Source: Escherichia coli (GTDB lineage Bacteria > Pseudomonadota > Gammaproteobacteria > Enterobacterales > Enterobacteriaceae). From it: a DNA stretch of 64,000 nt. Shown here in pieces: positions 41,601 to 44,600 of the stretch. Position numbers: made by a program. The stretch lies in assembly GCF_030013205.1 (NCBI RefSeq), contig NZ_CP122648.1, one strand, 5' to 3'. How positions within the stretch are numbered: position 1 is the stretch's first letter; every line of letters begins with the position of its first letter.

Positions 41601-44600
41601 TACAACCTGAAATCACTAATCCGGATAGCCTCCATAATTGCAGGCACTAGCGCTGTGAACTTTTCACGCTTATCCCTGGTGTCGATAGCCTTCCAGCGTT
41701 CAAATATCTTCACTCGATTAACGCTAAGCGCTCGCTGATCAACCGCGCCACCTTCATATGTGACACGCTGAACATCGATGTTCGGGCGCTCTTTCAAAGC
41801 CCAGAATGCTTCAGTGATTAATATCGTCGCCTGCTCCTGTGTCATTCCTGGTCGACATATCCAGGCATCCAGAGCCTCACGAGCCTGTTCAGGAGTGATT
41901 TTCATTGTTCAACCGCCCCGCCCGCTTCGTCTTACGATATTCGTCATAAACTTTGGGATCATACTGAAGCTCCCCGCCAGATGCCTCCTGTAGACGCATC
42001 GCGCGACCTTCGGGAACTAAATCCCCTTTCCAGCTATAAAGCGAAGCCAAACGAATACCTGCTGCTTGTGCAAGTTTTGTTTTTGAACCGAAATACAAAA
42101 GAGCGTCAGTTTTAAGCATTTAAAACACCTTAGCTGTTAGCCATGGCTAACAAAATAGATGTTAACAAAAACATAGTCAATACGATTTAGCATTAGCTAA
42201 CTATGGATACAAAAAATTTAACCATCGGCGAACGCATTAGGTATCGTCGGAAAAACCTCAAACACACCCAAAGGTCTCTTGCTAAAGCCCTGAAAATCTC
42301 CCATGTGTCTGTATCACAATGGGAACGGGATGATAGTGAACCTACAGGGAAGAACCTTTTTGCCCTCAGCAAAGTATTGCAATGCTCACCAACATGGATT
42401 CTATTTGGCGATGAAGACAAGCAACCAACACCACCTGTTGAGAAGCCGGTTGCCTTAGCCCCCAAAGAACTAGAGCTCCTTGAGCTGTTTAATGCACTGC
42501 CAGAATCAGAACAGGATACCCAGCTCGCCGAAATGCGAGCTCGAGTAAAAAATTTCAATAAACTCTTTGAAGAATTACTAAAAGCCCGTCAGCGGACAAA
42601 TAAAAGATAACATCATCAATGAGTTATCTTTTATTATATCAATTATGTTAGCCATAACATACAAAATCACTTGACCAATATGTTAGTCATGGCTAATCTT
42701 GTTTACATCAACACACCGCACGGTGTTCTCAGCAAACAGTTCCGCCACCCCGGCGTTAAGGGGAAATGAGGTCAGCATGGATACTATCGATCTTGGCAAC
42801 AGCGAATCTCTGGTATGTGGCGTGTTCCCCAACCAGGACGGCACATTCACCGCGATGACGTATACCAAAAGCAAAACGTTTAAAACCGAATCTGGCGCGC
42901 ATCGCTGGCTGGAAAGAAATTCAGGTGAGTAATATGGATTTCGACGCAATCATGGAAAAGGCTTACGAAGAATACTTCGAAGGCCTTGCCGAAGGCGAAG
43001 AAGCTCTCAGCTTCAGTGAGTTTAAACAGGCGCTTTCCAGTTCGATAAAATCTAACGGCTAACGGGGTTAAAGATGGAATTTAAAGATTTACCACTATCA
43101 ATCCAGGAGATTGCAGCACAGACACTCCGTCAACACCTGAACGAACTTGCATTGGAATCGGTAACGAAAAAAGACACTGATAATATGGCTCGTAATGTGC
43201 GCGATGCGTTTACCGGATTGTACTCTGTTTCGGTAACAAACAACCAGGATACTGAAGAAGCTGCAAAGCGGATTGCCTCGGCGATGGGTTTTCATGTCGA
43301 GGAAAAGTATTCAAAAAAAGAATTCTGGAAAATGGCCAAACGCATCGCAGAGCGAGGTGAAATGCTCTCTGCATCAGGGGATTCATTTTATAACGAAAAA
43401 ACTGATAACTCCTGTTTGCGTGAGTTGCTCTCGCTGCTTGATAAGTTCGGAATAATAATGACCGGCACTGCTCTGGCTGATTTCACTTATAGCGCAATTT
43501 GTCATAATGGAGAACCATGTCCGCCAGAATTAATAATCACCCCCGGCAATCATCCGAGGGTAAAAATACGAGCGATTCAGGAGCACTGGTTTAATCCAGT
43601 TCCACAAGACGAGGACGCGGTAAAACCTCTATAGGTTCCGTATAGCCTGACGCTCTTTTGGCATTGAGAATTTTATTTAACTTGTCAGCCTGATACTGAC
43701 TTGGTTTCACAAATATCCCATCAAGTTTTGATATATGGAATACACCGTGTTTCGGGCAATCAAAAATATAATAACCATTCTTCTCTGAAAAATCAGACGA
43801 AGAATTACAGACTGGGCATAGTTTTGTTGGCATTTTATCCTCCATTGGGATGCGGTTAAAAATGGAGATCAACACGCTGTCACGTGTGGTCGTGCGCCGG
43901 ACACGGATAAGAATCCGGCACTGACAGTTTACTGAAAGGATATATCCCTGAAAAGTCAGGGCATAACGCGAAAGCGCACGGCGAGGTTGATGGTTCATAG
44001 ATAGCCTGTCGTTAAATTTAATTCGACCGTGCGCTTCTGGTTGTGGCACTCCGCGAAATGGCGCGGCGGTAAGTATGGCGAGGCTATCCTTTCCTCGAGA
44101 TAACACCGGGTTGTCAGGTTGACCATACGCCTGAGTGCCCCCCCCGCTGCAACAACCCATGTAGATTACCTTTTGGCGGCATCAGTTTCATTGCTGGCTG
44201 ATGTCCGCCCTTTTTAAAGTGAATTTTGTGATGCGGTGAATGCGGCTCAGCGCACGCGGAACAGTTAAAAAGGCCAGTTGACTTCCGTATTGGTTCTTAT
44301 GGGTGGGTTCTCTGTATCCGGCGTTAATTGTTAACTGGTTAACGTCACCTGGAGGCACCAGGCACCGCATCACAAAATTCATTGTTGAGGGCGCGATAAT
44401 GGAAACGTTATTACCAAACGTTAATACATCTGAAGGTTGTTTTGATATTGGCATTCAGCTCAGTAATAAAGACTTCACTGCGGATGCCATTAATATGAGG
44501 AAATATGAACCTTATCTTCTCAATGATAATTCCATGCTTTCCCGACTCGCCCTCCTTAAACTTGACATTTTCCAGGAGAAAAAATCATGGGTGTAATGTG

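What the first reader, a model, noticed from the sequence alone, without database searches (positions are those of the whole stretch)
43074..43845. Convergent, 3-prime-overlapping gene pair in the dicB operon
A 186-aa ORF on the plus strand and an 80-aa zinc-finger-like ORF on the minus strand (good SD) overlap by about 44 nt at their 3-prime ends. Antisense overlap of this kind can mediate mutual regulation; neither protein is recognised.
Basis: seen in the sequence. Interest (0 to 1): 0.3.

Follow-up and report, generated by a model that had tools for sequence, protein, structure and literature searches.

The report
Swappable convergent gene pair in prophage
The overlapping convergent ORFs are two real, co-inherited but uncharacterised prophage genes that form one of several interchangeable cassettes in the dicB operon, with the small zinc-ribbon gene sitting backwards inside the operon much as sieB does in phage lambda.

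Summary
The plus ORF at 43074-43634 (186 aa) and the SD-led minus ORF at 43591-43833 (80 aa; invariant CxxC...CxxH) overlap by exactly 44 nt, between ydfB and DicF/dicB of a Qin-type prophage. The window is identical to porcine E. coli UMNF18.

- **Both are genes.** dN/dS is 0.15-0.40 for the large gene and 0.07-0.24 for the small one.
- **They travel together.** The pair stays convergent in E. coli and Salmonella, and in two distant lineages where only the large protein's C-terminal domain (about 31% identity) is kept. The overlap is 20, 44 or 119 nt; a borderline relative with an unrelated partner overlaps by 8 nt. So the arrangement is conserved, not the overlap.
- **It is a cassette.** The pair replaces K-12 ydfC. 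At least four other cassettes share the large protein's N-terminal module and also carry a convergent small gene; three of them share the 5' leader.
- **Candidate expression signals.** The leader has a positionally conserved promoter-like site and a hairpin that sequesters the SD.
- **Decay.** In O157:H7-type genomes both genes are broken.
- **Function unknown.** No family, defence-system or fold match gave a function.

Best reading: a cognate accessory pair. The small gene is inferred to be expressed antisense to the DicA-repressed operon in the lysogen, and the large gene on derepression. The biochemical function is unknown.

The parts
43074..43634 (+). Large gene (186 aa; PGAP WP_000394524.1, 'hypothetical'). 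About aa 1-55/85 is an N-terminal helical module shared with many other prophage proteins. About aa 79-174 is a cassette-specific C-terminal domain (CTD). The tail after WFNP is variable.
   Evidence: ORF; annotation. dN/dS 0.15-0.40. The N-terminus matches five PHROGs that have different C-termini, and 127 homologues mostly cover only 37-57% of the query. A CTD-only homologue occurs in L015 (31% identity, E 5e-13).
43591..43833 (-). Small gene (80 aa): a zinc ribbon (C6, C9, C26, H29), one helix, and a conserved C-terminus ..RPxxVELD.
   Evidence: dN/dS 0.07-0.24. AF2 model with pLDDT 78: strands 3-5, 12-18, 21-26 and 30-35, helix 46-61. Only sub-threshold Zn_ribbon Pfam hits.
43591..43634 (.). 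The 44-nt 3' overlap of the two coding regions.
   Evidence: Coordinates. Synonymous divergence of the large gene falls to 0-0.14 here. The small protein's C-terminus is conserved while the large protein's tail varies or is shorter (FNPVQQ*, giving a 20-nt overlap).
43839..43843 (-). Shine-Dalgarno GGAGG of the small gene, 5 nt before the ATG.
   Evidence: Sequence; invariant in all type-A leaders.
43839..43869 (-). Leader hairpin 3: anti-SD (U)CUCCAU(U) at about 43868-43861 pairs with AUGGAGG and sequesters the SD.
   Evidence: all five predicted pairs are kept in 9 sequences, with one compensatory A-U to G-C change in L018. Minus-strand fold z = -2.5 against -0.95 for the plus strand. Unrelated leaders in L015 and L019 also pair UCCUU with their AAGGA SD.
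43872..43887 (-). Leader hairpin 2 (ACACG-loop-CGUGU). Its 6-nt loop occurs in both orientations among relatives.
43892..43921 (-). Leader hairpin 1 (GUGCCGGAU...GUCCGGCGC). Two G.U pairs make it stronger on the minus-strand RNA. It is also present in the K-12 Qin dicF leader.
43926..43954 (-). Candidate sigma-70 promoter of the small gene: -35 TTTTCA (43954-43949), 17-nt spacer, -10 TAAACT (43931-43926). The predicted start is near 43919, giving a leader of about 86 nt.
   Evidence: PWM scan: this is the top-scoring site, with its -10 ending 92-94 nt before the ATG, in eight loci with the type-A leader. These include L006 and L036, whose upstream sequence differs. The stricter consensus scan missed it. 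No transcription start data were available.
43537..43563 (-). Candidate intrinsic terminator of the small gene: a 10-bp stem including 2 G.U pairs, then UUAUUAAUUCU. It lies inside the large ORF, in the TPGNHPRV codons.
   Evidence: The stem bases are invariant across copies, including a rare AGG codon, while the loop varies. The local drop in synonymous divergence is only modest.
43061..43890 (.). The replaceable cassette relative to K-12 Qin, where this interval holds ydfC.
   Evidence: 96.6% identity up to 43060, 77.7% from 43891 on, and no similarity in between.

Best explanation
SHOWN. This is a conserved two-gene accessory cassette in the variable 'ydfC slot' of the DicA-repressed early-left (dicB) operon of a Qin-type lambdoid prophage.

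- The plus gene encodes a chimera: a widely shared N-terminal helical module fused to a cassette-specific C-terminal domain (CTD).
- The minus gene encodes an 80-aa zinc-ribbon protein.
- Both are under purifying selection. They are co-inherited as a convergent pair even at about 30-40% protein identity, and both are broken in the O157-type lineage.
- At least four other cassettes have the same layout: the same N-terminal module, a different CTD and a different convergent small gene. Three of the four share the small gene's leader and SD.

INFERRED.

- The small gene has its own promoter (-10 at 43931-43926), an ~86-nt structured leader whose third hairpin sequesters the SD, and its own terminator inside the large ORF.
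- It is wholly embedded antisense in the operon transcript, as lambda sieB is convergent with N in the PL operon. It would therefore be made, under translational control, while DicA keeps the operon off. It would be silenced by converging transcription and RNA duplex formation once the operon is derepressed and the large protein appears.
- The CTD and the zinc-ribbon protein act as a cognate pair, with one neutralising or partnering the other. This could be a lysogen-expressed effector with a phage-made antidote, or the reverse.

The biochemical activity of both proteins is unknown.
For: - **Real genes:**
- **Co-inheritance and kept convergence:** E. coli and Salmonella copies (L003, L005-L012, L020-L025, L040-L041). 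Distant pairs L015 (a CTD-only partner) and L018.
- **Joint decay in O157:H7:** a 1-nt deletion in an A-run in the large gene; a TCA-to-TAA nonsense change plus S16L and G30V in the small gene.
- **Cassette replacement relative to K-12:**
- **Sister cassettes with the same layout:**. The type-A leader is shared by three of the four.
- **Matching copy numbers:** the N-terminal module (1333 places in 820 genomes) and the small-gene leader (1282 places in 751 genomes) occur in nearly equal numbers among 5426 complete E. coli genomes.
- **Expression signals:** positionally conserved promoter-like site; SD-sequestering hairpin with one compensatory change and strand-specific G.U pairs; terminator-like hairpin.
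- **Lambda precedent:** sieB 34482-35036(+) abuts N 35037-35438(-).
- **sieB neighbour:** in L019 a borderline zinc-ribbon homologue lies directly downstream of sieB on the same strand.
- **Literature:** genes antisense to prophage lytic genes are typical accessory loci (PMC7067206). The dicB operon is a single repressed transcript (PMC5069750).
Against: - There are no expression data for either strand. The promoter is only a moderate PWM match that the stricter consensus scan missed.
- The leader is also conserved in K-12, which has no cargo gene. Its conservation could therefore serve the plus-strand dicF precursor instead.
- Covariation in the leader rests on one divergent sequence, L018.
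- Co-inheritance could simply reflect recombination breakpoints in the conserved flanks. Only about four deep lineages support the coupling.
- The borderline relative P0129 (E 9e-4) has an unrelated partner.
- An AF2 fusion model gave no confident CTD fold or interface (pLDDT 50.8).
- No homology supports any toxin, immunity or defence role.
Confidence: 0.5

Rival explanations
1. These are two unrelated 'moron' genes that happen to be neighbours. They move together only because recombination occurs in the conserved flanks (the N-terminal module on one side, the dicF leader on the other). The 3' overlap is genome compaction with no regulatory or functional coupling.
For: Overlap length varies from a gap to 119 nt. 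The flanks are highly conserved while the interior is swapped. P0129 is paired with an unrelated 200-aa protein. No interface was predicted.
Against: The CTD and zinc-ribbon pairing persists in L015 and L018, outside the usual flanks: there is no N-terminal module in L015 and the leader differs. Both genes carry inactivating changes within a ~760-bp stretch of the O157 copy that is otherwise nearly identical to an intact one. Every sister cassette keeps one plus-strand CTD and one convergent small gene.
Confidence: 0.25
2. This is a SieB/Esc-like exclusion module. The zinc-ribbon protein is a lysogen-expressed abortive-infection or exclusion effector kept in check by its SD-sequestering leader. 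The large protein, made from the early operon, is the phage's own antidote.
For: The position and orientation match lambda sieB. In L019 a borderline homologue sits next to sieB. The gated leader suggests a product that must be kept low. P22 sieB is itself controlled by an antisense RNA and bypassed by Esc (PMC12197685).
Against: There is no similarity to SieB or to any PADLOC defence protein. The small protein is soluble and mildly basic, not membrane-associated. No phage-challenge data exist.
Confidence: 0.2
3. This is a guarded host-takeover toxin. The CTD of the large protein is a growth-inhibiting early function, like Kil or DicB. The small protein, helped by its antisense transcription, neutralises leaky expression in the lysogen.
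For: The operon is known to encode toxic early products (DicB, DicF; PMC5069750). The layout of a conserved N-terminus, a variable C-terminus and an adjacent co-varying small gene resembles polymorphic toxin and immunity loci. One sister cargo protein has a sub-threshold GhoS (antitoxin) hit.
Against: No toxin domain was detected. An antidote would be expected to be freely translated, not SD-sequestered. The GhoS hit is below threshold and weak in a pairwise comparison.
Confidence: 0.2
4. The minus strand acts only as a regulatory antisense RNA against the operon (large gene, dicF or dicB read-through), and the 80-aa ORF is not translated.
For: The transcript would be fully complementary to the operon RNA. 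The leader is structured and conserved. K-12 keeps part of the leader without any ORF.
Against: There is strong purifying selection on the ORF (dN/dS 0.07-0.24), a constant 80-aa length, invariant Cys/His ligands and a perfect SD. Homologues at 30-40% identity keep the fold signature.
Confidence: 0.05

Closest known systems
Lambda / P22 sieB (superinfection exclusion B), convergent with gene N inside the PL early-left operon
   Same: An accessory gene placed backwards inside the repressor-controlled early-left operon, with its 3' end meeting the 3' end of a promoter-proximal early gene. A borderline homologue of the small gene lies next to sieB in L019. P22 sieB expression is controlled by an antisense RNA and bypassed by Esc (PMC12197685).
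   Different: No sequence or fold similarity. SieB is a ~170-190-aa protein (PF14163), not an 80-aa zinc ribbon. Here the facing early gene co-varies with the small gene, and the pair is exchanged as a unit. An exclusion function is untested.
K-12 Qin dicB operon (ydfA-ydfB-ydfC-dicF-dicB)
   Same: Same operon backbone: dicC/dicA, ydfA and ydfB at 96.6% identity, and the dicF leader, DicF and dicB at 77.7%. The pair lies in the stretch that in K-12 is ydfC plus the long untranslated region before dicF (PMC5069750).
   Different: K-12 has the unrelated 72-aa ydfC and no minus-strand gene. It keeps only the promoter-like element and hairpin 1.
Polymorphic toxin / immunity cassettes (CdiA-CT/CdiI, Rhs-type)
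   Same: A constant N-terminal part, a swappable C-terminal domain, and an adjacent small gene that changes with it. There are several alternative cassettes at one locus.
   Different: The small gene is convergent rather than downstream on the same strand. The N-terminal part is only ~55-85 aa. No toxin or immunity domain is recognisable, and there are no secretion-related features.
Type I toxin-antitoxin loci (e.g. hok/sok, tisB/istR)
   Same: A small ORF whose ribosome-binding site is occluded by a conserved leader structure, with overlapping antisense transcription.
   Different: The small protein is hydrophilic (GRAVY -0.41), not a membrane peptide. The opposing transcript is a protein-coding operon, not a dedicated small RNA.

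Membership tests
Qin-type dicB operon | dicC/dicA divergent repressor pair followed by ydfA, ydfB ... dicF, dicB on one strand | tested here: met
   same order and 96.6% / 77.7% identity to K-12 on either side of the cassette.
Qin-type dicB operon | DicF sRNA reaching Rfam's gathering score | tested here: inconclusive
   44160-44210 scores 32.5 bits against a gathering score of 48 (E 6e-4). It covers the full model length and is followed by a terminator-like hairpin.
SieB superinfection exclusion (PF14163) | Sequence match to the SieB family | tested here: not met
   no SieB hit for the small protein.
SieB superinfection exclusion (PF14163) | Located in the early-left operon, opposite in orientation, convergent with an early gene | tested here: met
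SieB superinfection exclusion (PF14163) | Excludes superinfecting phage | not testable with these tools
   Needs plaque assays.
Zinc ribbon fold | Two pairs of metal ligands on two beta-hairpin knuckles | tested here: met
   Invariant C6-x2-C9 and C26-x2-H29 in 8 homologues down to 30% identity. The AF2 model has four strands over residues 3-35 at pLDDT 76-90.
Zinc ribbon fold | Significant match to a curated zinc-ribbon family or a solved structure | tested here: not met
Type II toxin-antitoxin | Two co-directional, co-transcribed genes with a recognisable toxin or antitoxin domain | tested here: not met
   The genes are convergent. No TA domain in Pfam, NCBIfam or PADLOC.
Type I toxin-antitoxin | Small hydrophobic toxin peptide | tested here: not met
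   80 aa, GRAVY -0.41, pI 8.5, zinc ribbon plus helix.
Type I toxin-antitoxin | Translation start occluded by mRNA structure, with an antisense transcript | tested here: inconclusive
   An SD-sequestering hairpin is predicted and conserved. Transcripts were not observed.
Known anti-phage defence systems (PADLOC-DB 2.0) | Match to a defence-system protein model | tested here: not met
   there is no hit for the small protein. The large protein has one insignificant hit (Cas11a, E 0.0075, 14.4 bits), and one sister cargo protein has a weak PDC-M04B hit (E 0.003).
Polymorphic toxin-immunity locus | Constant N-terminal region, variable C-terminal domain, and a co-varying adjacent small gene | tested here: met
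   five cassette types.
Polymorphic toxin-immunity locus | Recognisable toxin domain, with the immunity gene downstream on the same strand | tested here: not met
   No toxin domain. The small gene is convergent.

The most novel reading that the evidence does not exclude
The locus is one allele of a previously undescribed polymorphic conflict module of Qin/Rac-type prophages. A constant N-terminal 'handle' carries interchangeable C-terminal effector domains. Each is matched to a cognate small protein encoded backwards under a shared promoter and an SD-sequestering leader. Effector and partner are therefore produced in opposite prophage states (lysogeny versus derepression). The module would act in exclusion with self-immunity, or in guarded host takeover.
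Probability: 0.3. Interest if true: 0.7.

Novelty: new variant of a known kind. Interest (0 to 1): 0.45.

Why it matters
About 15% of complete E. coli genomes carry this N-terminal module and the backwards-gene leader, with a median of two copies in genomes that have any. All of the cargo proteins are annotated as hypothetical.

If the pairs are cognate, the slot is a new source of small effector/antidote or defence/anti-defence proteins. It would also be a natural example of state-dependent expression built from convergent transcription plus a gated leader.

The slot sits directly upstream of dicF and dicB. Transcription from the small gene's promoter could therefore also affect how tightly these toxic products are silenced.

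There is a practical point for annotation as well. Pipelines call the minus ORF at 80, 135, 189 or 199 aa, and PHROG 10133 appears to be built from a truncated pseudogene form.

Tried and rejected
- **'The last 20 aa of the small protein are a junction artefact.'** This was my early idea, because PHROG 10133 has only 65 positions. Rejected: the 80-aa form with ..VELD is the conserved one. The 61/65-aa form is a nonsense-truncated copy found in O157-type genomes.
- **PGAP's 135-aa version (43591-43998).** Rejected: the extension has no SD and is not conserved. L003 diverges from about 43983.
- **The promoter-like site 43859-43832 from the consensus scan.** Rejected: its -10 overlaps the start codon.
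- **Homology searches that gave nothing:**
  - tblastn of the small protein against 50,697 phage records found no match.
  - A word-index search with the CTD alone returned no candidates, so one search was wasted.
  - The profile search of 1.84 billion representatives found only three small relatives plus repeat-protein noise.
  - Two scans of species-representative genomes found nothing, and a metagenome scan found only three loci, all close variants.
  - The CTD alignment was too divergent to scan for related loci.
- **Structure.**
  - The fusion model of large protein, linker and small protein was too poor to use (pLDDT 50.8).
  - Three fold searches with the small-protein model found nothing significant.
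  - The AFDB library was unavailable.
- **A weak ArgR N-terminal (winged-helix) hit for the CTD** (E 0.045) was not corroborated by Pfam.
- **Rfam** found no known RNA family in the leaders.
- **Expression data.** The Thomason 2015 dRNA-seq paper is not held, and the Cappable-seq table is cut before this genome position. Accession and name searches in the literature returned nothing.
- **The 200-aa partner in L019** is not related to the CTD.
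Full report
**1. The observation**

The ORF list and the sequence show a plus-strand ORF at 43074-43634 (186 aa). 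They also show a minus-strand reading frame open from 44160 down to 43591.

Within the minus frame, an ATG at 43833 is preceded by GGAGG (43843-43839) at a 5-nt spacing. This gives an 80-aa product, MPTKLCPVCN...RPRLVELD. The finding's end coordinate, 43845, is an in-frame upstream ATG (MEDK...) with no SD of its own. The two coding regions share 43591-43634, which is 44 nt.

The window matches porcine E. coli UMNF18 and several ETEC/O139/O141 pig isolates at 100% over the 1301 bases searched. PGAP annotates the plus ORF there as a hypothetical protein. It annotates the minus ORF as a 135-aa hypothetical protein (43591-43998).

The context is a Qin-type prophage integrated next to ompW:

- hokD/sok, a SIR2-family gene, ydaT and dicC (41889-42119, minus strand)
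- dicA (42203-42610), ydfA and ydfB (to 43062)
- the pair under study
- a DicF-like RNA (44160-44210; 32.5 bits, below Rfam's gathering score of 48)
- dicB (44399-44596), DUF1482, an 800-aa exonuclease, xis and int

**2. Both ORFs are genes**

Homologues of the large protein were found with a word-index search. Their genomic contexts were then fetched.

Every full-length homologue, in both E. coli and Salmonella enterica, has the 80-aa ORF intact and convergent next to it. This holds down to 68% identity for the large protein and 65% for the small one.

Nei-Gojobori estimates give dN/dS of 0.15-0.40 for the large gene and 0.07-0.24 for the small gene, at dS up to 1-2.6. The small protein always has 80 residues, with C6, C9, C26 and H29 invariant.

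An AlphaFold2 model of the small protein (8-sequence alignment, pLDDT 78) shows a four-stranded zinc-ribbon-like sheet, one helix (46-61) and a flexible tail.

The idea that the minus strand makes only a non-coding antisense RNA is therefore very unlikely.

**3. The overlap itself is not the conserved feature**

- In one clade the large protein ends FNPVPQDEDAVKPL*, giving a 44-nt overlap.
- In another clade it ends FNPVQQ*, giving a 20-nt overlap.
- In the distant pair L015 the overlap is 119 nt.
- In the borderline relative L019, whose partner is unrelated, it is 8 nt.

Inside the overlap the small protein's C-terminus (RPxxVELD) is conserved, while the large protein's tail varies. The large gene's synonymous divergence falls to zero there, as expected if the small gene sets the constraint.

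**4. The pair is a cassette in a variable slot**

Against K-12 Qin the window is 96.6% identical from dicC to the end of ydfB (43060). It is 77.7% identical from 43891 onward, through the dicF leader, dicF and dicB. The interval 43061-43890 has no counterpart, and K-12 has the unrelated 72-aa ydfC there.

The large protein is itself a chimera. Its first ~55-85 residues (MEFKDLP...NVRDAFTGLY...) match five different PHROGs and more than 100 proteins whose C-terminal parts differ.

I fetched contexts for four of those other types. Each has a convergent small gene just downstream:

| Locus | Large protein | Convergent small protein | 3' ends | Small-gene leader |
|---|---|---|---|---|
| L013 | 212 aa | 69 aa | abutting | type A |
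| L036 | 138 aa | 64 aa | 33-nt overlap | type A |
| L037 | 125 aa | 102 aa | 90-nt overlap | type A |
| L038 | 121 aa | 106 aa, strongly hydrophobic by sequence (probably membrane) | 211-nt gap | type B |

The 80-, 69-, 64- and 102-aa genes share the same upstream sequence, SD and, in part, first codons. The exchangeable unit is therefore the C-terminal domain of the plus gene together with the body of the minus gene. It is bounded by two conserved 'handles'.

In 5426 complete E. coli genomes:

- The N-terminal module occurs at 1333 places in 820 genomes.
- The small-gene leader occurs at 1282 places in 751 genomes.
- The zinc-ribbon cargo occurs at 413 places in 411 genomes.

**5. Evidence that the two proteins are functionally linked**

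A profile search of 1.84 billion representative proteins found only three distant relatives of the small protein.

- P0124 (40% identity) is convergent with, and overlaps, a 135-aa protein. That protein is homologous to residues 79-174 of the large protein (31% identity, E 5e-13) and lacks the N-terminal module.
- P0128 is followed by an overlapping partial homologue of the same domain.
- P0129, a borderline match (E 9e-4), has an unrelated 200-aa partner.

So the C-terminal domain and the zinc-ribbon protein have stayed together, convergent, through deep divergence and outside the usual flanks.

In the O157:H7/O103-type copy both genes are damaged. I checked the lesions in EDL933 and in nine viral or metagenome contigs. 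The 387 complete genomes that match the cargo at about 70% identity, including EDL933, probably carry the same copy.

- The large gene has a 1-nt deletion in an A-run, which removes the C-terminal domain, and an R-to-M change in the conserved HPRV motif.
- The small gene has a TCA-to-TAA nonsense change at codon 62, plus S16L and G30V at otherwise invariant positions.
- All of this lies in a ~760-bp stretch that otherwise differs from an intact copy at only about a dozen further positions downstream of the divergent N-terminal third.

PHROG 10133 (65 positions) corresponds to this truncated form. This overturned my early idea that the C-terminus in the window was an extension.

The caveats are:

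- There are only about four independent deep lineages.
- Block inheritance through flank recombination could mimic coupling.
- A fused AlphaFold2 model was too poor (pLDDT 50.8) to show a fold for the C-terminal domain or an interface.

**6. Expression signals of the small gene (inferred)**

*Promoter.* A position-weight scan of the 500 nt upstream of the small gene was run in ten loci. In all eight loci with the type-A leader, the best sigma-70-like site sits at the same place, with its -10 ending 92-94 nt before the ATG. In the window this is TTTTCA, a 17-nt spacer, then TAAACT, at 43954-43926. The eight loci include L006 and L036, whose sequence upstream of that point differs. The stricter consensus scan did not report this site.

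*Leader.* The implied ~86-nt leader folds into three hairpins.

- Hairpin 1 (43892-43921) has two G.U pairs, so it is stronger on the minus-strand RNA.
- Hairpin 2 (43872-43887) keeps its stem, while its loop occurs in both orientations among relatives.
- Hairpin 3 pairs CUCCAU with AUGGAG and so buries the SD. It is kept in all nine sequences, with one compensatory A-U to G-C change in L018.
- The minus-strand fold has z = -2.5, against -0.95 for the plus strand.
- The unrelated 'type B' leaders of L015 and L019 also pair a UCCUU stretch with their AAGGA SD.

*Terminator.* A terminator-like hairpin on the minus strand (43563-43537) lies 28 nt past the small gene's stop, inside the large ORF. 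Its stem bases are invariant, including a rare AGG codon, while the loop varies. The local drop in synonymous divergence is modest.

None of these signals could be checked against transcript data. K-12 keeps the promoter-like element and hairpin 1 without any cargo gene. Part of this conservation may therefore serve the plus-strand dicF precursor.

**7. How it most likely works**

[quoted passage not shown] By analogy, the small gene and its leader lie entirely within that transcript, in antisense.

This is the layout of lambda sieB. That gene (34482-35036, plus strand) meets the 3' end of N (35037-35438, minus strand) inside the PL operon. Genes antisense to prophage lytic genes are a recognised signature of accessory loci (PMC7067206). 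P22 sieB is itself controlled by an antisense RNA and bypassed by Esc (PMC12197685). In L019 a borderline zinc-ribbon homologue sits directly downstream of sieB on the same strand.

My best account has two parts:

- The small protein is made from its own promoter, with gated translation, while the operon is off. When the operon is derepressed, converging transcription and RNA duplex formation shut the small gene down and the large protein appears.
- The C-terminal domain and the small protein are a cognate pair.

Which of the two is the 'effector' cannot be decided. The occluded SD fits a product that must be kept low, which favours an exclusion/self-immunity reading. The polymorphic constant-N/variable-C layout, and a sub-threshold GhoS-like hit in one sister cargo, fit a guarded early toxin. 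I give the general model 0.5 confidence. The chance-neighbour alternative gets 0.25. The two specific versions are sub-cases of the general model, at about 0.2 each.

**8. Comparison with known systems**

The pair is not a member of any of the following:

- SieB (no sequence match)
- Any PADLOC defence family
- A type II TA system (the genes are convergent and have no TA domains)
- A type I TA system (the small protein is hydrophilic, not a membrane peptide)

These conclusions rest.

The small protein meets the ligand and topology criteria of a zinc ribbon. It matches no curated family or solved structure significantly. The C-terminal domain is an orphan.

The pair resembles sieB in placement, polymorphic toxin/immunity loci in modularity, and type I TA loci in leader logic.

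**9. Verdict**

The finding is real and somewhat richer than described. It is one allele of a widespread, unannotated, swappable two-gene slot in the dicB operon, with a shared backwards-gene leader.

Antisense control on a larger scale remains plausible but untested.

I rate it a new variant of a known kind (prophage accessory genes embedded antisense in the early-left operon). Interest is moderate.

Noticed in passing
window 36961-38387: The hok/sok locus appears to be split by an insertion sequence. The Rfam sok/hok-leader match is at 38220-38387(-) (109 bits) and the hokD coding region is at 36961-37116(-). An IS481-family transposase gene at 37188-38261(+) lies between them.
   Followed up: partly
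window 38590-39549 (-): A SIR2-family protein gene lies inside the prophage, between the IS/hok region and the replication genes. It may be an anti-phage defence gene.
   Followed up: no
window 44160-44376 (+): The DicF-like RNA (44160-44210) scores only 32.5 bits against a gathering score of 48, so it is a divergent variant. An STnc100-like match (44222-44376; 33.7 bits against 47) follows it in the dicB 5' region.
   Followed up: no
window 43872-43887; L013, L037, L040: The 6-nt loop of leader hairpin 2 occurs in both orientations (ACACG-TGACAG-CGTGT versus ACACG-CTGTCA-CGTGT). This holds even between copies whose cargo is 96% identical, so it looks like a small loop inversion with the stem kept.
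   Followed up: partly
window 43946-43961: The inverted repeat CCCTGA-aaag-TCAGGG overlaps the candidate -35 of the small gene. It is conserved in most copies and in K-12. It could be a protein-binding site or a hairpin in the operon RNA.
   Followed up: no
L004 (K-12 Qin) 2632-2666 = NC_000913.3 1649131-1649165, minus strand: K-12 keeps the promoter-like element and leader hairpin 1 but has no backwards gene behind them. An antisense start site facing ydfC may exist in K-12.
   Followed up: partly
window 43591-43998 (-): Annotation is inconsistent. The same minus ORF is called at 80, 135, 189 or 199 aa in different records, and it is missing from PSJ-22, where it is intact. Only the SD-led 80-aa form is conserved.
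   Followed up: yes
L034 (O157:H7 EDL933) 3147-3908; L026-L033, L042: The O157:H7/O103-type copy carries a frameshifted large gene (129 aa) and a nonsense-truncated small gene (61 aa). I checked this in EDL933 and in nine viral or metagenome contigs; 387 of 5426 complete genomes match at about 70% identity and probably carry the same copy. PHROG 10133 appears to be built from this truncated form.
   Followed up: yes
L037 2789-3097 (-): The 102-aa small protein of a sister cassette has a near-full-length but sub-threshold match to the GhoS antitoxin family (E 0.015; 15.8 bits against a cut-off of 21).
   Followed up: partly
L015 3926-3965; L019 3190-3215 and 3926-3965; L018 1-60; L038 upstream of 3398: A second conserved leader element (..TGTCTTTT..CCACTTCAGGCTCGGTGG..) precedes the small backwards genes in L015, L019 and L038, and also precedes sieB in L019. 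In L018 it stands in tandem with the type-A hairpin. It matches no Rfam family.
   Followed up: partly
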